The notes under the pieces: model-generated
What the model saw: only the letters and a program-made list of their open reading frames with translations
Told to the model about the DNA's origin: nothing
Databases searched by the model: none
Program-made: the position numbers and the translations under genes
Shown: in pieces, positions 30,160 to 40,529 of the stretch
How the letters are laid out: each line of letters opens with the position of its first letter
Position numbering within the stretch: the stretch's first letter is position 1
Assembly (NCBI GenBank): GCA_964436275.1
Contig: CAYTBZ010000005.1
Span: 1 to 52,071, forward strand
Reading direction: 5' to 3'
Length of the DNA stretch: 52,071 nucleotides
Source: an uncultured Gammaproteobacteria bacterium
GTDB lineage: Bacteria > Patescibacteriota > Patescibacteriia > UBA2591 > CAYTBZ01

Positions 30160-30944
30160 TGGTATTAGATAATCTTAAAAAGAAAAGAAAATTTTTTATT
30201 AATAATTCAATAATTATCATCCTCTTTTGGCTACTTTTTTTATTTGTCAGAATATTTCTTTTTAAAATAGTCAATTTTACCAACTCATCTAAAATTGACC
30301 TTTTTTATGACGAAGGAACTTATCTTTATACATCTAAACTTATCAGTGAAGGATTAGTTCCTTTTAGAGATTTTTTTATCGGTCATATGCCTTTTTATCA
30401 ATACCTCCTTTCATTTTTTTGGAAAATTGGATTTGATTTTGTCACTATTCATTATCTTCATATTTTTCTTTCTTCCTTAGTTATTTTTCCTCTTTTTCTT
30501 TTCAGTAAAAAAATCATTAAAAACAAAATAATTCTTTATTTACCCGTTTTGTTAATAACTTTCAGTCCTCTTTATTTTCTTTTCTCTCTTTTAGTCATTC
30601 TTGATCCAATAATGACATCTTTTCTCGTTTGGGGACTATATTTTTATTTTTTCCCTGAAAATAAACCAAAAAAATTTTTAGCCGGTCTATTTTTTGCTCT
30701 GGCTACTTTAATTAAAATATCGGCTCTCGTTTCCATTTTCTCTCTCCTTCTTGCTGATTTTATTTTTGATAAAAACAAAAAGAAATTTTTTAGCCAAACT
30801 TTTAAAAAGTTTCTTCTTGGATACCTCCTTATAATTATTCCTGTTTTTATTTGGCTTTTTTCTTTTCCTCAGTTTTTCAATAATTTATTCCTTTTCCACC
30901 TTGTTTACCATTATCCCGTAAGTATTTACAAAAAAATTAAATGA
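30159..30944 (+). CDS. ArnT/PMT-like (GT-C) membrane protein, short or truncated
   Basis: YDEGTY first-loop motif, PFRDFF...HMP, LATLIK; only 261 aa. Confidence 0.6.
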   Translation: MVLDNLKKKRKFFINNSIIIILFWLLFLFVRIFLFKIVNFTNSSKIDLFYDEGTYLYTSKLISEGLVPFRDFFIGHMPFYQYLLSFFWKIGFDFVTIHYLHIFLSSLVIFPLFLFSKKIIKNKIILYLPVLLITFSPLYFLFSLLVILDPIMTSFLVWGLYFYFFPENKPKKFLAGLFFALATLIKISALVSIFSLLLADFIFDKNKKKFFSQTFKKFLLGYLLIIIPVFIWLFSFPQFFNNLFLFHLVYHYPVSIYKKIK

Positions 30945-31906
30945 CAAAGAAAAGAAAATACCATTTTTTCTTTTACTTGAGACCTGAAGAAATAATTTCT
31001 TTGTTCTTTTTACTTCTTTTAATTACTATTTTCTTCTATTATCGAGTAAATATCTTTCACTATCACCATCTTCCTATCTATCTCCTTCTTTACGCTGGAC
31101 CAATTATTGCCTTTTACTATCTTTTAAAATATGTCTTTTGTTCCGCTGATAAGAAACTCCATTTTAAATTAGTTGTCAAAAAAATAATAATTTTCTTTCG
31201 CGATTGGATTCCTATAATCTTAGTTATCTTTATTTATAATGCCATTCATGATACTACTCATTTAATCAATTCTAAAGAAATGGATAGTTTATTAATTAAA
31301 ATAGACAAATTTTTATTTTTTGGGCATCACCCTACACTTTTTTTTGAAAAATTAATCAACCCTTATCTTAGTTATTACACCTTCTTTATCTATGATTTTT
31401 ATCTTTGGCTCTATCCTTTGACTTTAACTATCTTTTATCTTAGAAAAAATAAAAAAATATTCCATCAATTAGTTTTAACAATGACCATTGCTCTTTACTT
31501 AGGACTAATTGGTTATTTAATTGTTCCTTGCAAAGGACCAGTATTAGCCCAAAGAAATTTATATTCTTGTGATTTATTCGGCAGACAAGATTTTACTTAT
31601 ACTCATTCTTTAGCCCAATTATATATTTACCAAAGATATGCTTTTCACTGCTTTCCCAGTTTACATACTACTCTATCAACCATCTTTCTTTTCTTTATTT
31701 TACGCTTTTCTTCCTCTAAAATACTCCGCTTACTTTATCTTATTATTGTCCCAAGTATTTGGTTTGCTACTCTTTATCTCCGTTGGCACTATCTTATTGA
31801 TATCATTGCTGGCTTTCTCTTGGCTTACCTCTCTATTTACCTTGGTTTTAAAATTGGCCAATTTTGGCAAAGAAAATCCTTAATAAAAGCCAATGAAAAA
31901 ACTTAG
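30941..31906 (+). CDS. PAP2-superfamily membrane phosphotransferase (AUR1/IPC-synthase-like)
   Basis: LIVPCKGP, HCFPSLHT and LYLRWHYLIDIIAG catalytic motifs on a multi-TM scaffold. Confidence 0.8.
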   Translation: MTKKRKYHFFFYLRPEEIISLFFLLLLITIFFYYRVNIFHYHHLPIYLLLYAGPIIAFYYLLKYVFCSADKKLHFKLVVKKIIIFFRDWIPIILVIFIYNAIHDTTHLINSKEMDSLLIKIDKFLFFGHHPTLFFEKLINPYLSYYTFFIYDFYLWLYPLTLTIFYLRKNKKIFHQLVLTMTIALYLGLIGYLIVPCKGPVLAQRNLYSCDLFGRQDFTYTHSLAQLYIYQRYAFHCFPSLHTTLSTIFLFFILRFSSSKILRLLYLIIVPSIWFATLYLRWHYLIDIIAGFLLAYLSIYLGFKIGQFWQRKSLIKANEKT

Positions 31907-33182
31907 TAAAAAACAAATTATTCTTCTTATCATTCTAATTATTCTTGCTCTAATCCCTCGATTGATCTTAGCCCCCCAACCGGGCCATAAAGGCGATACT
32001 GGCTGTTGGCAAAGGTGGTCATATCTAATTCAAAAAAGGGGACTAACTAATGTTTATGAAGAACATAAAACGCCTGCTATTTTTATTGACCCAAACTATC
32101 TTCCTCCTTATCTCTACATATTGGGTCTGCTCGGTAAAATTTATCAAAAATTCTTCTCTTCTCAATTTCTCTTTGATACTAAAATTCTTTATCTTTTACT
32201 TAAACTACCAGCAATTATTTTTGATCTATTTTTAGGTTTATTAATTTTCTTTTTTCTTTTACCTAGAAAAAAATTTAAAACAGCCTATCTTATATCAGCC
32301 CTTTTTCTTTTAAACCCAGCGATTATCTACGATTCATCCTACTGGGGACAAATAGATTCAATTCATACTTTCTTCATCCTGCTTGCTCTTATTCTCCTTT
32401 ATAAAAACAAATTTTCTTTTTCTTGGATTTTCATTACTTTAGCTTCCTTTTTCAAACTTCAAAGCACTATTCTCATACCTTTCTTCTTAATAATAAATTA
32501 TAAAAAACAAGGAGCAAAAAGAACCATTATTAACCTCTTCATTGCCCTTCTTACTGCTGGCCTTATTTGCTTGCCTTTTCTTGTAAAAGGTAAAATATCT
32601 TATCTCTTAAAAATTATCATTACTGCTCCGGGTAGTTTCCCTGTACTTTCAGCCAATGCCTTTAATTTTTGGTGGCTTTTCCATGGAATCCATCTTTCTT
32701 CTTATTCCTTTTCTCCAATAAGAGATTTTTCCTCTTCTTCTCCTGACCTATTTTCACCTTTCTTTATTGGTTTAATCATTTTTTTGGCAGTTTATTTACT
32801 CATTCTTTTAAACTATCATCTTAAAAAATATCCTCCTGCAATATTTTTTTCTACTGCTGCTTTTCTTATTTTTTCTTTTTTTATGATTCCTACAGAAATG
32901 CACGAACGTTATCTATATCCAGTTCTTCCTATAATTTGCTTAACTCTTTTCCAAAATAAAAAAATGTGGTTAATTTATATTGGTCTTTCTTTCACTCTTT
33001 TGGCTAATCTTTTGGCTGTTTTACCTTTTCTTGATTTGACTAAAAAGATATTTAATTGTTCTTCACTTTCCTCTTGGCCAATTGTTTTCCTTAATATATT
33101 TTTATATTTTTATTTCTTTATTTATTTAATTAAATACAACAAAAATGATGGAAAAAATTCTTATCGTTCTTCCAACTTATAA
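31893..33182 (+). CDS. GT-C membrane glycosyltransferase (mannosyltransferase-like)
   Basis: GDTGCW first loop, NYLPPY, LKLPAI, YWGQIDS, SANAFNFW and MHERYLYP motifs. Confidence 0.72.
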   Translation: MKKLSKKQIILLIILIILALIPRLILAPQPGHKGDTGCWQRWSYLIQKRGLTNVYEEHKTPAIFIDPNYLPPYLYILGLLGKIYQKFFSSQFLFDTKILYLLLKLPAIIFDLFLGLLIFFFLLPRKKFKTAYLISALFLLNPAIIYDSSYWGQIDSIHTFFILLALILLYKNKFSFSWIFITLASFFKLQSTILIPFFLIINYKKQGAKRTIINLFIALLTAGLICLPFLVKGKISYLLKIIITAPGSFPVLSANAFNFWWLFHGIHLSSYSFSPIRDFSSSSPDLFSPFFIGLIIFLAVYLLILLNYHLKKYPPAIFFSTAAFLIFSFFMIPTEMHERYLYPVLPIICLTLFQNKKMWLIYIGLSFTLLANLLAVLPFLDLTKKIFNCSSLSSWPIVFLNIFLYFYFFIYLIKYNKNDGKNSYRSSNL

Positions 33183-33867
33183 TGAAGAGAATATCCTTCA
33201 AAAGAATGTTCTTAAAGTAAGGAAATTCTGCCAAGATAATTTAAGAAACTTTGATTGGCAAATTCTGATTGCTGATAACGGTTCAACAGATAAAACACCT
33301 AAACTTGCTCAAGAACTTAGTCAGGAATATTCAAGAATTGATTATTTTCATACTTCACAAAAAGGACGAGGAGCCGCTTTAAAAATTGCTTGGAATAAAA
33401 ACAATTATTTGGCTGATATTTATCTCTATATGGATATTGATTTAGCCACAGATTTAAATCATCTTCCTCAACTGATTAGATCAATTATTCAAGAAGGATA
33501 TGATTTAACTATTGGTTCACGTCTTCAAAAAGAATCAAAGACAGAAAGATCTTTTTTACGAGAATTTATCTCTCGTTTTTATAATCTACTTCTGAAAATT
33601 TTCTTTGGTCTTAAAATTAAAGATTATCAATGTGGTTTTAAAGCAGTTAATCAAAAAATAGTTGAAAAAATTGTTCCTCTTATTAAAAATAATAACTGGT
33701 TCTTTGATACAGAATTAATTATTCTTAGCCATAAGAATAATTATAAAATTAAAGAAATACCTGTTAAATGGGTAGAGAAAAGGGATAAAAAAAGAAAAAG
33801 CAAGGTCAAAATTATTAAAACTGCTTGGGAAGATATTAAAGGAATTATTAGGTTAAAATTATCTTAA
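33145..33867 (+). CDS. GT2 glycosyltransferase, polyprenyl-phosphate hexose synthase (DPM/DPG synthase)-like
   Basis: VLPTYNEE, ADNGSTD, GRGAA, YMDIDLA (DxD), GSRL, DYQCGFKA and WFFDTEL motifs. Confidence 0.88.
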   Translation: MMEKILIVLPTYNEENILQKNVLKVRKFCQDNLRNFDWQILIADNGSTDKTPKLAQELSQEYSRIDYFHTSQKGRGAALKIAWNKNNYLADIYLYMDIDLATDLNHLPQLIRSIIQEGYDLTIGSRLQKESKTERSFLREFISRFYNLLLKIFFGLKIKDYQCGFKAVNQKIVEKIVPLIKNNNWFFDTELIILSHKNNYKIKEIPVKWVEKRDKKRKSKVKIIKTAWEDIKGIIRLKLS

Positions 33868-33876
33868 TTTTAAATA

Positions 33877-33929
33877 AATAAAATAAATAAAAAACGAGGT
33901 TAAAAACCTCGTTTTTTATTTATTTTATT
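33877..33929. terminator. Bidirectional terminator between GT2 and the pilin array
   Basis: Perfect 24-bp inverted repeat AATAAAATAAATAAAAAACGAGGT/ACCTCGTTTTTTATTTATTTTATT. Confidence 0.8.
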
Positions 33930-33940
33930 CTAATCTAAAT

Positions 33941-34327
33941 TCATTTAGAAACCACTTGAACGCCAACCAAACTAAAAACTAAATGGGCAATTCCATAAGA
34001 AGCAAAAATTATGAACAGACCAATAACTGCATTAGTGATTAAACTTTTTGCTTTTTTAACATTTTCTGGATTTCCACCAGCAGTCATCCAAATTAAACCG
34101 CCATAAATAGTCAAAACTAAAAAAACTAATCCCAAATAACCTAAAACTAAATCAATAATTGTTCCAACAACTCCTATTATATCCCCTTTACCTGTACTAG
34201 CCAGTCCGGCTTTTTTAGCCGCTTTATCTAATCCATAATCTCCAGCCAAAACAAAATTAATCTTTGCTTGGAGAAAAGCAAAAAGTCCAATTACTATAGC
34301 CATAAAAATATCTTTGTTCCTTTTCAT
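33941..34327 (-). CDS. TrbC/VirB2-like pilin
   Basis: GGLIWMTAGGNPENVKKAKSLITNAVIGL two-helix hairpin motif; N-terminal signal-like segment. Confidence 0.85.
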   Translation of the reverse strand: MKRNKDIFMAIVIGLFAFLQAKINFVLAGDYGLDKAAKKAGLASTGKGDIIGVVGTIIDLVLGYLGLVFLVLTIYGGLIWMTAGGNPENVKKAKSLITNAVIGLFIIFASYGIAHLVFSLVGVQVVSK

Positions 34328-34331
34328 TAAC

Positions 34332-34697
34332 TTAACCCTCCCTAGTAGGCATTAGACTAATGACAAAGCGGGCGATTCCCCAAGCAGCCAAAACAATAAT
34401 TAAACCAATTATTCCAGCCGTTAGAGTATGCTTGGCTTTTTTTACTGCATCTTCATTACCACCAGCAGTCATCCAACGAAAACCTCCATAAAGAATAACA
34501 GCTACAGCAATCAACCCTAAAAAGCCCAAAAGCTTATCAATAATTTCTTCTGCTGTGTCCCAGGCATTGATATTACTAGCAACAATATTAGATTCAGGTA
34601 AACGGATATCACCAGCAAAAACAACTGAATTCGTAGTTAAAAAGGGGATGCTTAAAATCAACATCATCAAGAAAAGATAAATTCTCTTCTTCAACAT
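34332..34697 (-). CDS. TrbC/VirB2-like pilin (duplicate A)
   Basis: GGFRWMTAGGNEDAVKKAKHTLTAGIIGL motif; AAGGAGGTG Shine-Dalgarno. Confidence 0.88.
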   Translation of the reverse strand: MLKKRIYLFLMMLILSIPFLTTNSVVFAGDIRLPESNIVASNINAWDTAEEIIDKLLGFLGLIAVAVILYGGFRWMTAGGNEDAVKKAKHTLTAGIIGLIIVLAAWGIARFVISLMPTREG

Positions 34698-35063
34698 AAT
34701 TTCACCTCCTTTCTTTTAAATAAATTATTAGTTTTTACAATTATAACATTTATAAGAAACAAAAGTCAATAATTTACTTTTCCTAAACAACTATGTCGTC
34801 CTAGTAGGCATTAGACTAATGACAAAGCGGGCGATTCCCCAAGCAGCCAAAACAATAATTAAACCAATTATTCCAGCCGTTAGAGTATGCTTGGCTTTTT
34901 TTACTGCATCTTCATTACCACCAGCAGTCATCCAACGAAAACCTCCATAAAGAATAACAACTACAGCAATTAATCCTAAAAAGCCCAAAAGCTTATCAAT
35001 AATTGATTCTGCTGTTTCCCAAGCATTGATATTGCTAGCAACAATATTAGATCCAGGTAAACG
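34341..35063. repeat. 264-bp direct repeat (34341-34604 and 34800-35063) between two pilin genes
   Basis: Manual alignment at offset 459 gives 9 mismatches in 264 bp; the first ~160 bp are identical; the start-codon/SD regions (~34675-34730 and ~35209-35262) are also near-identical. Confidence 0.92.
34740..34769 (-). promoter_or_regulatory. Internal promoter for pilin duplicate A
   Basis: TTGACT (34769-34764)-N18-TATAAT (34745-34740) with extended -10 TG. Confidence 0.6.
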
Positions 35064-35231
35064 AACACTGCCAGCAGTTTCAGTGGTTTCAGGAGTTTCG
35101 GGGCTAGGTCCAGGACCAGGGCCAGGGCTAGGAGGAGGAGCTATCTGAGCAAAAGCGACTGGGGCAATAGTCAAAAGAAGAATGGTTAAGAGTAATAATC
35201 CGGAAAAAAGATAAATTCTCTTCTTCAGCAT
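34791..35231 (-). CDS. TrbC/VirB2-like pilin (duplicate B, Pro/Gly/Thr-rich insertion)
   Basis: Same core as 34332..34697 plus QIAPPPSPGPGPGPSPETPETTETAG; same Shine-Dalgarno. Confidence 0.88.
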   Translation of the reverse strand: MLKKRIYLFSGLLLLTILLLTIAPVAFAQIAPPPSPGPGPGPSPETPETTETAGSVRLPGSNIVASNINAWETAESIIDKLLGFLGLIAVVVILYGGFRWMTAGGNEDAVKKAKHTLTAGIIGLIIVLAAWGIARFVISLMPTRTT

Positions 35232-35258
35232 AATTTCACCTCCTTTCTTAAAAATAAA

Positions 35259-35645
35259 TTATTTTGCTCCAATAGCTTTAAAAATAAAACTTAAAATAGC
35301 ATAACTGCTGAAAATTACTAAAATACCAATACTTGCCCAGACCAAGGTGTCTCTTCCTTTTTTAATGGCTGTAGAACTTCCTCCAGAAGTCATCCAAACT
35401 AAACCACCATAAATAAACATTATTAAAGCAATTGCTCCAATAATCCCTAAAAAAATCTTAATACCCCTACCAATTAAACTAACTGGGTCAGTTTCACTAA
35501 TAGGACTTTCTAAAGTTACTGTGTAGTTGCTGTTCAAATCATCGCTAGCCATCCAAGCGCTGTTTCTTCCGCTAGTTAAAAAGATACTTGCCAGCAGTAA
35601 AAAAACAAAGAAAAATAGAATTATTTTAAATTTTTTTTCTCCCAT
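35259..35645 (-). CDS. TrbC/VirB2-like pilin
   Basis: GGLVWMTSGGSSTAIKKGRDTLVWASIGI motif. Confidence 0.85.
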   Translation of the reverse strand: MGEKKFKIILFFFVFLLLASIFLTSGRNSAWMASDDLNSNYTVTLESPISETDPVSLIGRGIKIFLGIIGAIALIMFIYGGLVWMTSGGSSTAIKKGRDTLVWASIGILVIFSSYAILSFIFKAIGAK

Positions 35646-35655
35646 TTTTTAAAAA

Positions 35656-36348
35656 TTAAGAACCCTCTTCTTCTGGAGAACAAAAATCTACTCTTTTTAT
35701 TGCATTCTTACACTCTTCCTTCTCACTCCTTTCTTCTACCCATCCCCCCTCGCAGAGTGTTCCTGCCTCTCTCATTTGCCTCAAAGTATCCTTACAATTA
35801 GCTTCTGAAAAACGTGCTTCCCCTCCTAAACATTTACACTCTCTACTACAAGAATCGCCATCTTTTACCCGAACCACACAAAATCCATCTTTCTCAACTA
35901 CTTTTGCCTTCTTTTTTAAACGCGTATAACCTGGTTTAATTCCAACTGCTGTTTCAATAAAATAAACAATCAACCAAGCAGTCATTACTATTATAAGCCC
36001 AGTTAAAGTTCCAATCAAGATGTCTTTACCTTTTTTTACCCGGCTCTGACTACCCCCAGAAGTCAAGAACATAAACCCGCCAACAATAAAATAAACTAAA
36101 GCCAAAGCACCAACAATACCTAAAATAATTTTTGAAAGATTGATAAAAAGCAAAAGAAAATCCTCCAAAGTACAATCGCCAGTAGCAGCACAATCAGGAA
36201 CAATCTTCCCTAATCCTGAACTAGCAGCAAAACTAAAAAAGAAAGGAAATAAGAAAAAGAAAGAAAAAAGAGAAAAGAAAAAGAAAGTAAAAAATAATTT
36301 TCTCTTTTTATCTGCTTTAATATGTTTGATTAACTCGTTCCACAGCAT
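35656..36348 (-). CDS. TrbC/VirB2-like pilin with Cys-rich C-terminal extension
   Basis: GGFMFLTSGGSQSRVKKGKDILIGTLTGL core; 8 Cys in the C-terminal tail; start position uncertain. Confidence 0.8.
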   Translation of the reverse strand: MLWNELIKHIKADKKRKLFFTFFFFSLFSFFFLFPFFFSFAASSGLGKIVPDCAATGDCTLEDFLLLFINLSKIILGIVGALALVYFIVGGFMFLTSGGSQSRVKKGKDILIGTLTGLIIVMTAWLIVYFIETAVGIKPGYTRLKKKAKVVEKDGFCVVRVKDGDSCSRECKCLGGEARFSEANCKDTLRQMREAGTLCEGGWVEERSEKEECKNAIKRVDFCSPEEEGS

Positions 36349-39299: not shown

Positions 39300-40529
39300 T
39301 TAAATTTTTAAATTAATCAAACCAATAATAAGCCAAAAAAGCAAAGATAAATCATTTTTAAAGTAAGGAACATCAACCAAACCATGAAAAATAATAATAA
39401 GCAAAGCCAATAAACAGGAGAGAGCAAGAAAATTATTTTTAACGATTAATTTCTTTTTTACCTCTTTAAATGATTTTAGGAGCAATAAAAGAAAAGTCAA
39501 CAAACCAAAAAGCCCTAATTCTGACCAAAAATTAAGAAAGATATTATGAGGGTATAAAAAAATCTCAATATACTTTGCCTGATGGTAAGGTACAATTTTC
39601 TTTTGATAGCCAGCTAAACCAGCACCAAAAAGCCAATTATCTTTAAGCATCTGCCAACTTTCTTGCCAAAGAGTAAGGCGAACCTTAACTGACCAATCTT
39701 GACCATTAAATTTATTAATTAAATATTCGCGAAATAGAGGGATAGTAGTAAAAAGAATGATTAAAATTAAAATGATTAAAATCGTCTTTAGGCGATACTT
39801 TTTAAAACTCAGGCCAAAAACAAAAAGAGATAGAACTAAGGCGGCTATTGCTCCTTCTGAACGAGCAAAAACAATGGCTAAAAAAGAGAAAAATAAAACT
39901 ATTAGATAAAAAAACTTCTTTTTCTCCCAACCTCCCTTAAAAATCCTTCCTAGCAACAATCCTATTATTGGCCCAAGGTAAAGCGCTAAAGCATTAGGGT
40001 AAGGAAAAACACCAGTTACCCGTCGACCCTCTCCTTTAAACCAGTATTGATAAGGAACCAACCAGCCAGTAAATTTTTGATAAAAAGCAATTAAAGAAAC
40101 TATTAAAGCACCAGCGCCTAAAGCGGTCAAAACTAATTCTAAATCTTTTTTATCTTTAATTTCATTAATAAAAACGAAAAAGAAAAGCACTGGCTCCAAG
40201 AAATAGGCCTTCCAAATACCCAAAGCAGAAATTTTATTAGGAGAGACAATAACGGCTAATGAAGCGACAGCTAACCAAAGGAAAATCAAATATCTGAACT
40301 TTCCTAAATAAACCTTTTCTCCACTGAAAATTCTTTTTAAAAACCAAACAAGAAAAAGAATAATTATCATCAGCTCCAAGAGGGTAAAAGGAATGAAAAA
40401 AACTTTAAAACGTAGAAGATAACTGGGTAATGCGAAAAGGATAAAAGCTAAAGCAAAATCTAATCTTTTTATACTTAAAGCAGTGAAAAGCAAAGCAAAA
40501 ATGAAAATAAGAAAATAATAAGTATTCAT
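39300..40529 (-). CDS. O-antigen ligase/Wzy-family membrane protein
   Basis: RVTGVFPYPNALA, ARSEGA, VRLTLWQ, GAGLAGY and YPHNIFLNFWSELGLFG motifs. Confidence 0.88.
   Translation of the reverse strand: MNTYYFLIFIFALLFTALSIKRLDFALAFILFALPSYLLRFKVFFIPFTLLELMIIILFLVWFLKRIFSGEKVYLGKFRYLIFLWLAVASLAVIVSPNKISALGIWKAYFLEPVLFFFVFINEIKDKKDLELVLTALGAGALIVSLIAFYQKFTGWLVPYQYWFKGEGRRVTGVFPYPNALALYLGPIIGLLLGRIFKGGWEKKKFFYLIVLFFSFLAIVFARSEGAIAALVLSLFVFGLSFKKYRLKTILIILILIILFTTIPLFREYLINKFNGQDWSVKVRLTLWQESWQMLKDNWLFGAGLAGYQKKIVPYHQAKYIEIFLYPHNIFLNFWSELGLFGLLTFLLLLLKSFKEVKKKLIVKNNFLALSCLLALLIIIFHGLVDVPYFKNDLSLLFWLIIGLINLKI

What the first reader, a model, noticed from the sequence alone, without database searches (positions are those of the whole stretch)
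34332..35262. Duplicated pilins: constant ends, swapped variable middle
Seen: the two genes share a near-identical SD/start block and a 264-bp 3' block (9 mismatches, all in its N-terminal part, ~160 bp identical). The segment between (rest of the signal peptide and mature N-terminus) is unrelated, with a PPPSPGPGPGPSPETPETTET insert in one copy. The last codons differ and give copy A an SD for the next pilin, and copy A has its own TG-TATAAT promoter. Known: Neisseria pilE/pilS variation swaps variable cassettes between conserved flanks. Inference: recent duplication with gene conversion, allowing surface-tip switching or independent expression of two variants.
Basis: partly seen in the sequence, partly recalled or inferred. 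Interest (0 to 1): 0.65.

Follow-up and report, generated by a model that had tools for sequence, protein, structure and literature searches.

The report
Duplicated pilin genes homogenised by recombination
Two neighbouring genes for secretion-system pilus subunits in an ultra-small (Patescibacteria) bacterium are an old duplicate pair whose membrane-core halves are repeatedly copied onto each other, while their signal peptides and a short proline-rich surface tag stay different; it is a real, clean example of a process already known for such gene arrays.

Summary
Two adjacent minus-strand genes, 35231-34791 (146 aa) and 34697-34332 (121 aa), share a 58-bp ribosome-site/start block and a 276-bp 3' block. 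All 14 differences in that block lie in its first 117 bp, and the last 160 bp are identical.

Both are VirB2-like T4SS pilins (Pfam PF18895), not type IV pilus pilins. They are members 3 and 4 of a five-gene array in a 658-kb Patescibacteria genome.

The "unrelated middle" is a same-length but saturated signal peptide (dS about 1.4). One copy also has a 75-nt Pro/Gly/Thr/Glu insert right after the predicted cleavage site.

Contigs from related strains show concerted evolution. In the core, both copies of a genome share substitutions that are absent from both copies of other strains. The signal peptides group by type across all strains. The duplication is therefore old and the homogenisation recent.

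The insert is polymorphic, with two sequence forms and none. Hybrid, collapsed and expanded arrays appear on single short contigs, which is suggestive only.

There are no silent cassettes and no evidence of programmed pilE/pilS-like switching.

Closest precedents are the published Patescibacteria VirB2 arrays and concerted evolution of Bartonella trwL. Interest is moderate.

The parts
34791..35231 (-). Upstream copy: 146-aa VirB2-like pre-pilin with the A-type signal peptide (MLKKRIYLFSGLLLLTILLLTIAPVAFA|Q), a Pro-rich linker and a two-helix core
   Evidence: ORF; PF18895 E=2.7e-11; alignment
34332..34697 (-).
   Evidence: ORF; PF18895 E=2.8e-11; AF2 model has a signal helix at 3-24 and a hairpin H45-77/H82-115 with pLDDT above 90
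34341..34500 (-). 160-nt segment identical to 34800-34959. It covers the end of TM1, the loop, TM2 and the tail, and is the most recent conversion tract
   Evidence: X1 unitig 34341-34500 at 2x depth; dS=0 over 39 synonymous sites
34800..34959 (-). Partner of the identical 160-nt segment, in the upstream copy
34501..34616 (-). 5' part of the shared block (mature N-terminus and start of TM1), with 14 differences from 34960-35075. Across strains it is a patchwork of concerted, orthologous and swapped sites
   Evidence: dS 0.27, dN 0.10
35073..35147 (-). 75-nt low-complexity insert (QIAPPPSPGPGPGPSPETPETTETA) directly after the predicted signal-peptidase site. It is polymorphic among strains: linker 1, linker 2 (MAAPG[P/L]ETETETETPEVETET) or absent
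   Evidence: a linker-less allele is also seen as an X2 unitig joint 34608/35146
35148..35231 (-). A-type signal peptide region (28 codons)
   Evidence: Groups with A-type signals of all strains, 79-82 of 84 nt identical; tree split 100/100
34614..34697 (-). B-type signal peptide region (28 codons)
   Evidence: 58 of 84 nt identical to the A-type; groups with B-type signals of all strains; dS 1.44 against the A-type
34672..34729 (-). 58-bp SD/start block (3 mismatches against 35206-35263). It contains the strong RBS AGAAAGGAGGTGAAATTATG and codons 1-9
   Evidence: the same RBS core occurs on other probably highly expressed genes
35206..35263 (-). SD/start block of the upstream copy, 27 nt after the stop of the preceding pilin gene
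34698..34790 (-). Spacer I between the copies. It carries a sigma-70-like promoter, TTGACT-18-TATAAT with TG (34769-34740). Its first bases are homologous to the region just downstream of the second copy, which marks the duplication junction
   Evidence: the TGTTATAAT motif is conserved in all related contigs
34335..34343 (-). Last codons AGG GAG GGT of the downstream copy, which form the Shine-Dalgarno sequence for the next pilin gene
33941..34327 (-). Fifth array member, a 128-aa pilin
   Evidence: PF18895 E=2.6e-8
35259..35645 (-). Second array member, a 128-aa pilin
   Evidence: PF18895 E=4.1e-8
35656..36348 (-). First array member, a 230-aa pilin with a Cys-rich C-terminal extension
   Evidence: PF18895 E=4e-11
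33880..33926 (.). Bidirectional terminator-like hairpin closing the array

Best explanation
The two genes are paralogous VirB2-like (PF18895) pilin genes, members 3 and 4 of a five-gene pilin array in a Patescibacteria genome.

A tandem duplication of a unit of about 460 bp happened before the sampled strains and lineages diverged. The unit ran from about 37 nt upstream of the start codon to about 20 nt past the stop.

Since then, homologous (RecA-type) recombination between the copies has repeatedly overwritten the 3' two-thirds of one copy with the other. This recombination was gene conversion, probably with some unequal crossing-over. As a result the membrane hairpin core is identical within a genome but differs between genomes.

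Conversion tracts end near the signal-peptide/mature junction. There, homology is broken by the saturated signal-peptide sequence and by the 75-nt low-complexity insert.

The outcome is two pre-pilins with different signal peptides and different transcription inputs. The upstream copy is read with the preceding genes and the downstream copy has its own promoter. After signal-peptidase cleavage they would give the same core subunit in two forms. One is bare. The other carries a 25-residue Pro/Gly/Thr/Glu-rich N-terminal extension on the extracytoplasmic side.

Shown: the mosaic, the concerted evolution, the linker polymorphism, the promoter motif and the family assignment.

Inferred: the cleavage sites, the topology (N-terminus and C-terminus out, basic loop in), co-assembly of both forms, and any adaptive role of the extension.
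For: 1. Identity profile. There are 14 differences in the first 117 nt of the shared block and none in the last 160 nt (P=4.5e-5).

2. dS gradient between the copies. It is 1.44 in the signal region, 0.27 at the mature N-terminus and 0 in the 3' core over 39 synonymous sites. Orthologous flanking pilin genes differ between strains by dS 0.08-0.09. The core identity is therefore younger than the strain splits and the signal divergence is far older.

3. Quartet site patterns. In the signal region 21-27 sites support orthology and 0-2 support within-genome identity. In the core 0-2 support orthology and 5-25 support within-genome or within-lineage identity.

4. Contigs that carry both copies. On L046 both 3' ends carry the same derived states (GLVIV, VIDLL; ACTGGTCTGATTAGG at the variable sites). 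Both window copies and both L039 copies carry ACTAGTCCAGATAGG.

5. Trees. The signal region splits A-type from B-type at 100/100. The core groups lineage-II copies regardless of signal type at 100/100.

6. RecA is present in the genome.

7. The tandem is real in the source sample and in three independent assemblies.

8. Family and fold. PF18895 hits lie above the cut-off. The hydropathy profile and the AF2 model show a signal helix plus a helical hairpin.

9. The spacer promoter is conserved in all related contigs.
Against: - All comparative data come from short metagenomic contigs of 0.5-2 kb. The repeats are longer than or close to the assemblers' k, so some mosaics could be chimeras. This applies to L044 (single hybrid copy) and L040 (2.5x coverage, join through a 41-nt repeat).
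- Exchange between strains could contribute to the patchwork in the 5' part of the core.
- No RNA data exist for the locus, so separate expression is untested.
- No solved structure or fold match confirms the VirB2 relationship.
- The array is not next to the genome's VirB4-like gene, so a role in a T4SS pilus is inferred from the family only.
Confidence: 0.8

Rival explanations
1. This is a programmed, high-frequency antigenic-variation system of the Neisseria pilE/pilS kind. Variable cassettes would be moved between conserved flanks to switch the displayed pilin within a clonal population.
For: - Conserved blocks flank a variable segment.
- L040 and L042 differ almost only by a replaced segment of about 107 nt at the same array position. 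The flanks agree at 66 of 67 nt upstream, and only 4 differences follow in about 535 nt downstream.
- The linker is present or absent at the same position in L045 against L042 and L043.
Against: - Both copies are complete genes with a start codon and a strong RBS.
- The genome has no further partial or silent copies. The only other hits are 70% and 76% identical functional modules.
- Recombination here mainly homogenises the constant core rather than diversifying the variable part.
- No variant joints were found in the source run or in ten other runs, apart from alleles of other lineages.
- The proteins are not type IV pilus pilins.
- The L040 evidence rests on one low-coverage contig.
Confidence: 0.07
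2. The duplication is very recent. The 5' part then diverged quickly, through positive selection or relaxed constraint on the signal peptide and N-terminus, with no recombination between the copies.
For: - The identity profile alone is compatible with this reading.
- Signal peptides evolve fast.
Against: - dS of 1.44 in the signal region against 0 in the core cannot come from one duplication date.
- Both signal types are conserved (75-82 of 84 nt) in lineages whose cores differ by 8-9%.
- Five or more substitutions are shared by both copies in one strain and by neither copy in another.
Confidence: 0.04
3. This is an assembly artefact. Two strain alleles of a single pilin gene would have been stitched in tandem, or bubble-popping would have made two similar copies look identical.
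For: - The genome comes from a metagenome with several co-occurring strains, since variant unitigs appear in X2-X13.
Against: - The X1 repeat unitig has twice the flanking depth, with no alternative branch.
- A unique unitig bridges copy 2, the spacer and the copy-1 tail.
- The same tandem appears in MEGAHIT and JGI assemblies of other samples.
- The spacer carries a conserved promoter.
Confidence: 0.03
4. The nucleotide identity of the 160-nt segment is kept by selection on the DNA or RNA itself, for example an embedded RNA element, an antisense ORF or extreme codon preference. Recombination would play no part.
For: - A 43-aa antisense ORF is duplicated with the segment, at 34360-34491 and 34819-34950.
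Against: - Strains differ at 5-14 positions within this segment, while both copies of each strain stay identical. The sequence is therefore free to change, but changes in both copies together.
Confidence: 0.02

Closest known systems
VirB2-like pilin arrays of Patescibacteria (Pfam PF18895/PF04956; Microb Genom 2025, PMC12102498; essential pilin series in Southlakia epibionticum, Cell 2023, PMC10633639)
   Same: - Same protein family, with hits above the Pfam cut-off.
- Same phylum-level host.
- Tandem array of small pilin genes.
- The genome also has a monoderm-type VirB4-like ATPase and pilin-domain fusion proteins elsewhere.
   Different: - The survey reports a mean within-array identity of 25% and a maximum of 54%. 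This pair is 90% identical over the aligned 96 residues, with 160 nt identical.
- The survey does not describe concerted evolution or strain-level mosaics.
- The array here is on a different contig from virB4.
Tandem trwL (virB2 homologue) and trwJ paralogues of the Bartonella Trw T4SS (Nystedt et al. 2008, Mol Biol Evol 25:287, as cited in PMC2883598)
   Same: - Tandemly amplified T4SS pilin genes.
- Evolution combines concerted evolution (recombination among copies) with diversification of surface-exposed parts.
- Copy number varies between species.
- The copies are thought to be co-expressed.
   Different: - Different pilin subfamily and a diderm pathogen of mammals.
- Here there are only two (perhaps up to three) near-identical copies.
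- The variable element here is a cleaved signal peptide plus a short N-terminal low-complexity linker.
- No host or receptor is known.
Neisseria pilE/pilS pilin antigenic variation
   Same: - Non-reciprocal recombination between pilin-related repeats that share conserved segments flanking variable ones.
   Different: - Type IV pilus pilin against VirB2-type T4SS pilin.
- Neisseria has one expression locus plus many silent, promoterless partial cassettes. Here there are two complete expressed-type genes and no silent copies.
- The Neisseria system diversifies the variable part, whereas recombination here mainly homogenises the constant part.
Concerted evolution of duplicated bacterial genes by gene conversion (for example tufA/tufB and rRNA operons; general knowledge)
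   Same: - Paralogues are identical within a genome but diverge between genomes.
- The process depends on RecA.
- Tract ends lie where homology stops.
   Different: - Those cases homogenise whole genes. Here a sharp boundary leaves an ancient, paralogue-specific 5' module.

Membership tests
PF18895 T4SS_pilin (VirB2-like pilins of Patescibacteria) | Match to the Pfam model above its gathering score | tested here: met
   43.8 bits for both copies against a cut-off of 26.6, E about 3e-11. All five array genes match. Close homologues also carry precomputed PF04956 TrbC hits.
PF18895 T4SS_pilin (VirB2-like pilins of Patescibacteria) | Small protein with an N-terminal Sec-type signal peptide followed by two hydrophobic helices joined by a short basic loop | tested here: met
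   The hydropathy profile shows three hydrophobic stretches. The AF2 model has H3-24, a disordered 25-44, and a hairpin H45-77/H82-115 with pLDDT above 90. The AFA|Q and VFA|G sites follow the -3,-1 rule. Cleavage itself was not tested.
PF18895 T4SS_pilin (VirB2-like pilins of Patescibacteria) | Encoded in a genome, and ideally a locus, that has the T4SS machinery (VirB4 and others) | tested here: inconclusive
   No PF03135 hit was found. A 630-aa P-loop_TraG/AAA_10/DUF87 ATPase lies at C4:48492-50384, beside two pilin-domain proteins. It is on another contig, and nothing T4SS-like flanks the array in the window.
PF18895 T4SS_pilin (VirB2-like pilins of Patescibacteria) | Structural similarity to solved VirB2, TraA or TrbC pilins | tested here: inconclusive
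   A profile search of PDB sequences gave 0 hits at E<=10. Foldseek against the PDB gave only non-specific helical hairpins with E>=1.
PF18895 T4SS_pilin (VirB2-like pilins of Patescibacteria) | Polymerises into an extracellular pilus | not testable with these tools
   Needs microscopy or biochemistry.
pilE/pilS-type pilin antigenic variation | Type IV pilus pilin with a class III (prepilin peptidase) signal, G|F/M-x-x-x-E | tested here: not met
   The signals are 28 residues long and end in AFA or VFA. There is no G|FTLIE motif. A true prepilin-like start, MRMKKKGFTLIELLVV, occurs elsewhere at C12:~1658.
pilE/pilS-type pilin antigenic variation | One expressed gene plus silent, promoterless or 5'-truncated donor cassettes | tested here: not met
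   Both copies have an ATG, a strong RBS and full length. A genome-wide blastn finds no further copy above 76% identity.
pilE/pilS-type pilin antigenic variation | Variable segments exchanged between conserved flanks within a population | tested here: inconclusive
   L040 against L042 shows a replaced segment of about 107 nt between near-identical flanks. The linker is present or absent at one position. These come from different samples, L040 is a 2.5x contig, and no minority joints were seen in 12 runs.
Concertedly evolving tandem T4SS pilin paralogues (Bartonella trwL type) | Tandem duplication of a virB2-family gene | tested here: met
Concertedly evolving tandem T4SS pilin paralogues (Bartonella trwL type) | Over part of the gene, paralogues within a genome are more alike than orthologues between genomes | tested here: met
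   3' core: 160 of 160 nt identical within each genome, against 155 of 160 and 146-147 of 160 between lineages. In the quartets, 5-25 sites are concerted against 0-2 orthologous. The two partition trees are incongruent.
Concertedly evolving tandem T4SS pilin paralogues (Bartonella trwL type) | Copy-number variation among strains | tested here: inconclusive
   L044 is a single hybrid copy lying between the neighbouring pilin genes. L045 has two different spacers, which implies at least 3 copies. The sister lineage (L047, L102) has one copy. Each case rests on one short contig.
Concertedly evolving tandem T4SS pilin paralogues (Bartonella trwL type) | Diversifying selection on exposed parts | tested here: inconclusive
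   At the mature N-terminus dN/dS is about 0.36 (8 non-synonymous and 6 synonymous changes), which is too few sites to judge. The linker is hypervariable. A Cys-rich insert sits at the same site in the sister lineage.

The most novel reading that the evidence does not exclude
The conserved start block and the homogenised hairpin core may act as recombination handles. These would let Patescibacteria reassort N-terminal display modules among pilin-array members and among strains. The modules are the signal-peptide type and the Pro/Thr-rich or Cys-rich inserts placed right after the cleavage site.

This would amount to a population-level diversity mechanism for the surface of an essential host-interaction filament, a CPR counterpart of the Bartonella Trw pilin variation.

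The Ser/Thr/Pro-rich linker could also be a target for O-glycosylation. Candidate enzymes are the adjacent GT2 and GT-C-like enzymes and the Wzy_C (PglL/PilO-family-like) enzyme.
Probability: 0.22. Interest if true: 0.6.

Novelty: new member of a known kind. Interest (0 to 1): 0.38.

Why it matters
VirB2-like pilin arrays are a hallmark of Patescibacteria. In the one genetically tractable species the pilin series is essential for epibiotic growth (PMC10633639). How these arrays evolve is not described. The 2025 survey saw only diverged members, with at most 54% identity (PMC12102498).

This locus gives a strain-resolved picture. The membrane core is kept identical by recombination. The signal peptide and a short extracytoplasmic tag remain copy-specific and polymorphic.

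Two things follow if this is general, and unchecked notes from other genomes in this scan suggest it may be. First, the variable N-terminal site is where host- or phage-facing variation is generated. Second, identity-based clustering of these pilins would mislead orthology assignment.

The mechanism itself is textbook and is not a new kind of system.

Tried and rejected
- VirB4 via PF03135: no hit. A VirB4-like ATPase was found only with AAA_10 and P-loop_TraG, on contig C4.
- PDB sequence profile search: 0 hits.
- Foldseek of the AF2 model against the PDB: only generic helical hairpins with E>=1. Neither supports nor refutes a VirB2 fold.
- RNA-seq runs holding the stretch: none listed, so expression is untested.
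Instead, 12 runs were laid on the window to look for the 534-nt skip expected of a collapsed allele, and none was found. The joints that were found (X2 34608/35146; X9 and X13 34324/34776) are alleles of the other lineage: the linker-less A-signal form, and the last copy joined to the next pilin.
- GTDB relatives: the closest hit outside the own genome is only 43-47% identical, so species representatives give no orthologue comparison.
- The P0001 contig (99% identical) is withheld.
- Conversion with the dispersed third module, at the N-terminus of the 1835-aa protein on C7: about 70% nt identity and a longest identical run of 16-19 nt, so no recent exchange.
- A second near-identical-looking pair in another Patescibacteria array (L100, P0025 and P0023) has uniform 71% nt identity. 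It is an ordinary older duplicate, not a mosaic.
- Invertible-promoter idea: only a weak AT-rich inverted repeat (19 nt, 79% complementary) surrounds the spacer promoter. Rejected as chance.
Full report
**1. What is there**

The window is the whole contig C5 of a 658-kb, 22-contig, 32% G+C genome rated 100% complete. The nearest named protein hits are Patescibacteria: Magasanikbacteria, Buchananbacteria and Falkowbacteria. The runs that hold the stretch are hydrothermal-vent and sediment metagenomes.

On the minus strand, five consecutive small genes all match Pfam PF18895 (T4SS_pilin) above its cut-off:

| Coordinates | Length |
|---|---|
| 36348-35656 | 230 aa |
| 35645-35259 | 128 aa |
| 35231-34791 | 146 aa |
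| 34697-34332 | 121 aa |
| 34327-33941 | 128 aa |

The array ends in a terminator-like hairpin at 33880-33926. The finding concerns members 3 and 4. I call them the upstream copy (146 aa) and the downstream copy (121 aa).

**2. The observation**

It is exact.
- The copies share a 58-bp block around the ribosome-binding site and the first nine codons, with 3 mismatches.
- They share a 276-bp 3' block with 14 differences, all within its first 117 bp.
- The last 160 bp are identical, and the last two sense codons differ.
- A 160-nt identical run given 14 differences in 276 sites has P=4.5e-5. For third codon positions alone P=0.006.
- The downstream copy ends in AGG GAG GGT TAA, which is the Shine-Dalgarno for the fifth pilin gene.
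- The 93-nt spacer holds TTGACT-18-TATAAT with a TG extension (34769-34740). It is the best promoter-like match in 2.7 kb.

One statement needs correcting. The middle is not unrelated. Both signal peptides are 28 codons long, and codons 10-28 are 33 of 57 nt identical against 28% expected by chance. The upstream copy then has a 75-nt insert directly after the predicted signal-peptidase site. Compare AFA|QIAPPPSPGPGPGPSPETPETTETA-GSVRLPGSN with VFA|GDIRLPESN.

After cleavage the two mature proteins would differ only by the 25-residue linker, six substitutions and the last two residues.

**3. Not an artefact**

- In run X1, which holds 99% of the stretch's k-mers, the k-mer unitigs break exactly at the repeat.
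- One 160-bp unitig (34341-34500) has depth 19, against 7.3-10.9 in the flanks.
- A unique unitig (34471-34829) joins the downstream copy's 5' part, the spacer and the upstream copy's distinct tail.
- Contigs from other samples and assemblers carry the same tandem: L039 (1583 bp, 94.5% identical), L041 and the JGI contig L046 (97%).

**4. What the proteins are**

They are VirB2/TrbC-type T4SS pilin-like proteins, not type IV pilus pilins.
- They have a Sec-type signal, a short unstructured segment and a helical hairpin with a basic loop (RWMTAGGNEDAVKKAKH).
- A genuine prepilin-type start (…KKGFTLIELLVV) exists elsewhere in the genome.
- The fold could not be tied to solved VirB2 or TraA structures, because hairpins give only non-specific matches. 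Membership therefore rests on the HMM and the architecture.
- The genome has eight PF18895 modules.
- A VirB4-like ATPase (P-loop_TraG/AAA_10/DUF87) lies on contig C4, next to two larger pilin-domain proteins. One of these is fused to NlpC/P60.
- A 1835-aa protein on C7 has an N-terminus that is a complete pilin module very like this pair.
- All 40 order-level relatives searched have several such genes, typically a 3-5 gene array plus giant fusions.

Such arrays are published. PMC12102498 reports 441 arrays of 2-11 genes, with mean identity 25% and a maximum of 54%. PMC10633639 reports that the pilin series is essential in Southlakia.

**5. How the mosaic arose**

Close homologues from public assemblies fall into two groups.
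- A-signal forms: P0002 and P0003 carry a different linker, MAAPG[P/L]ETETETETPEVETET. P0004 has no linker.
- B-signal forms: P0005, P0006 and P0007.

Their contigs allow paralogue-by-strain comparison.

In the 3' core, both copies of a genome are identical while genomes differ. The window and L039 have ACTAGTCCAGATAGG at the variable sites. L041, L046 and L044 have ACTGGTCTGATTAGG. On L046 both copies' 3' ends lie on one contig.

Quartet counts:

| Region | Sites supporting orthology | Sites supporting within-genome identity |
|---|---|---|
| Signal region | 21-27 | 0-2 |
| Core | 0-2 | 5-25 |

Maximum-likelihood trees are incongruent. The signal region splits A-type from B-type at 100/100. 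The core groups the second lineage's A- and B-signal copies together at 100/100.

Synonymous divergence between the two window copies:

| Region | dS |
|---|---|
| Signal region | 1.44 |
| Mature N-terminus | 0.27 |
| 3' core (39 synonymous sites) | 0 |
| Orthologous flanking pilin genes between strains | 0.08-0.09 |

The duplication therefore predates the sampled lineages. The core has been homogenised since the strains split. The 5' part of the core is a patchwork of short tracts, and some sites are even swapped between copies in different strains. RecA is present.

This is concerted evolution by gene conversion, possibly with unequal crossing-over. Its boundary lies where homology is interrupted by the saturated signal sequence and the insert.

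A more distant lineage has a single copy with an A-like signal and no linker (L047). That form is probably ancestral.

**6. Population variants**

Robust:
- The linker is polymorphic. Linker 1 occurs in the window and in L045's second gene. Linker 2 occurs in L039 and L041. The linker is absent in L042 and L043, which come from two assemblies, and in an X2 unitig joint.
- In a sister lineage, two alleles of the single-copy gene differ by a Cys-rich insert at the same place (L102 and L103). The site just after the signal peptide is therefore an insertion hot spot.

Suggestive only, because each rests on one short contig:
- L044 is a single hybrid copy. It lies directly between the two neighbouring pilin genes, and its crossover falls inside the 58-bp start block.
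- L045 shows a B-signal copy followed by a second type of spacer and then an A-signal+linker copy. This implies at least three copies.
- L040 and L042 differ by one base in the 67 nt upstream and by only 4 bases in about 535 nt downstream. In between, a segment of about 107 nt covering the signal h-region and the first mature codons is replaced.
- L040 is a 2.5x contig whose upstream join crosses a 41-nt repeat, so a chimera cannot be excluded.
- No collapsed-allele joint was seen in 12 runs.

**7. Mechanism and function**

Shown:
- An old tandem duplicate pair with recent, recurrent homogenisation of the hairpin core.
- Paralogue-specific signal peptides.
- A hypervariable low-complexity N-terminal extension in one copy.
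- A conserved promoter for the downstream copy.

Inferred:
- SPase I cleavage at AFA|Q and VFA|G.
- A topology with both termini outside and the basic loop in the cytoplasm, by the positive-inside rule. This agrees with the fact that other family members carry their ectodomains after the second helix.
- Production of two interchangeable subunits, bare and tagged, under partly separate control.

Whether the tag affects host binding, phage or immune-like recognition, or glycosylation is unknown.

The pilE/pilS model is not supported. The pilin family is different, there are no silent cassettes, and recombination mostly erases differences rather than creating them.

**8. Comparison and novelty**

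The closest mechanistic precedent is the Bartonella Trw system. Its tandem trwL (VirB2) and trwJ copies show concerted evolution together with diversification (Nystedt et al. 2008, cited in PMC2883598). PMC12102498 already draws the Bartonella/Anaplasma analogy for Patescibacteria arrays.

This locus adds strain-resolved evidence of concerted evolution in a Patescibacteria pilin array. The pair lies far above the reported 54% maximum identity.

Earlier unchecked notes of this scan report conversion-homogenised PF18895 hairpins in several other CPR genomes. The phenomenon is therefore probably general. I did not test those cases.

Verdict: a new member of a known kind, of moderate interest.

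Noticed in passing
G000:C7:22037-27544 (locus L099 538-6045, minus strand): A 1835-aa protein begins with a complete pilin module: a signal peptide, then NLPNSNIVASNINAWETAEKIIDKFLGFLGLIAVV… and a hairpin. The module is about 70% nt identical to the pair. It is followed by about 1700 residues of Cys-rich, adhesin-like ectodomain. There is no recent conversion with the pair (longest identical run 16-19 nt).
   Followed up: partly
G000:C4:47783-56057 (locus L098): This is the probable T4SS core locus. It holds a 630-aa VirB4-like ATPase (P-loop_TraG/AAA_10/DUF87), a 524-aa pilin-domain protein and a 443-aa pilin-domain protein fused to an NlpC/P60 hydrolase. Several other proteins there have no Pfam match.
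   Followed up: partly
window 30941-33867 and 39300-40529; L100 1-641: Glycosylation genes surround the pilin array. A GT2 (DPM-synthase-like), a PIG-U-like/GT-C-like membrane protein and a PAP2 enzyme converge on it. A Wzy_C protein, from the family that includes the PglL/PilO pilin O-oligosaccharyltransferases, lies 3 kb upstream. An unrelated Patescibacteria pilin array (L100) sits next to an MptA_B/PMT_2 GT-C enzyme. The Ser/Thr/Pro-rich linker of the upstream copy could be an O-glycosylation target. This is speculative.
   Followed up: partly
window 34703-34722 and 35237-35256; G000 C6:22155, C12:1658, C14:2639: The RBS core AGAAAGGAGGTGAAA(T/A/C)(T)ATG of the pair recurs on a few other genes. 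These include a type IV prepilin-like gene (MRMKKKGFTLIELLVV) and an HU-like gene. It is fully complementary to the 16S rRNA 3' end seen at C14:1210, so part of the shared '5' block' is simply an optimal RBS.
   Followed up: partly
L102 188-637 against L103 107-454: In a sister lineage with a single-copy gene, two alleles have nearly identical cores. They differ by a 30-residue Cys-rich insert (NEACTDDTDCEDAPTCNVEECACLGGVCKK) right after the signal peptide. L102 also has an inverted repeat of about 80 nt upstream (88-169).
   Followed up: partly
L042 447-908: The homologue of the fifth pilin gene on JGI contig L042 departs from all others after …GGNPENV and continues as unrelated sequence. This is either a chimeric contig or a disrupted gene.
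   Followed up: no
window 34375-34776 in run X8: A B-signal variant unitig about 90% identical to the window has depth 44. The flanking pilin genes of the same strain have depth 15-20. Another unitig diverges completely upstream of the RBS (loose end at 34720). This may reflect extra copies or several strains.
   Followed up: no
window 34718-34736 / 34761-34779: An imperfect AT-rich inverted repeat (19 nt, 79% complementary, 24 nt apart) brackets the spacer promoter. It is probably chance.
   Followed up: no
L100 2531-5935: Another Patescibacteria contig (89 kb, 43% G+C) has a seven-gene pilin array. Its first two genes (P0025 and P0023) are uniformly 71% nt identical and about 80% identical by eye at the protein level (not computed), which would exceed the published 54% maximum. 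They show no mosaic pattern.
   Followed up: yes
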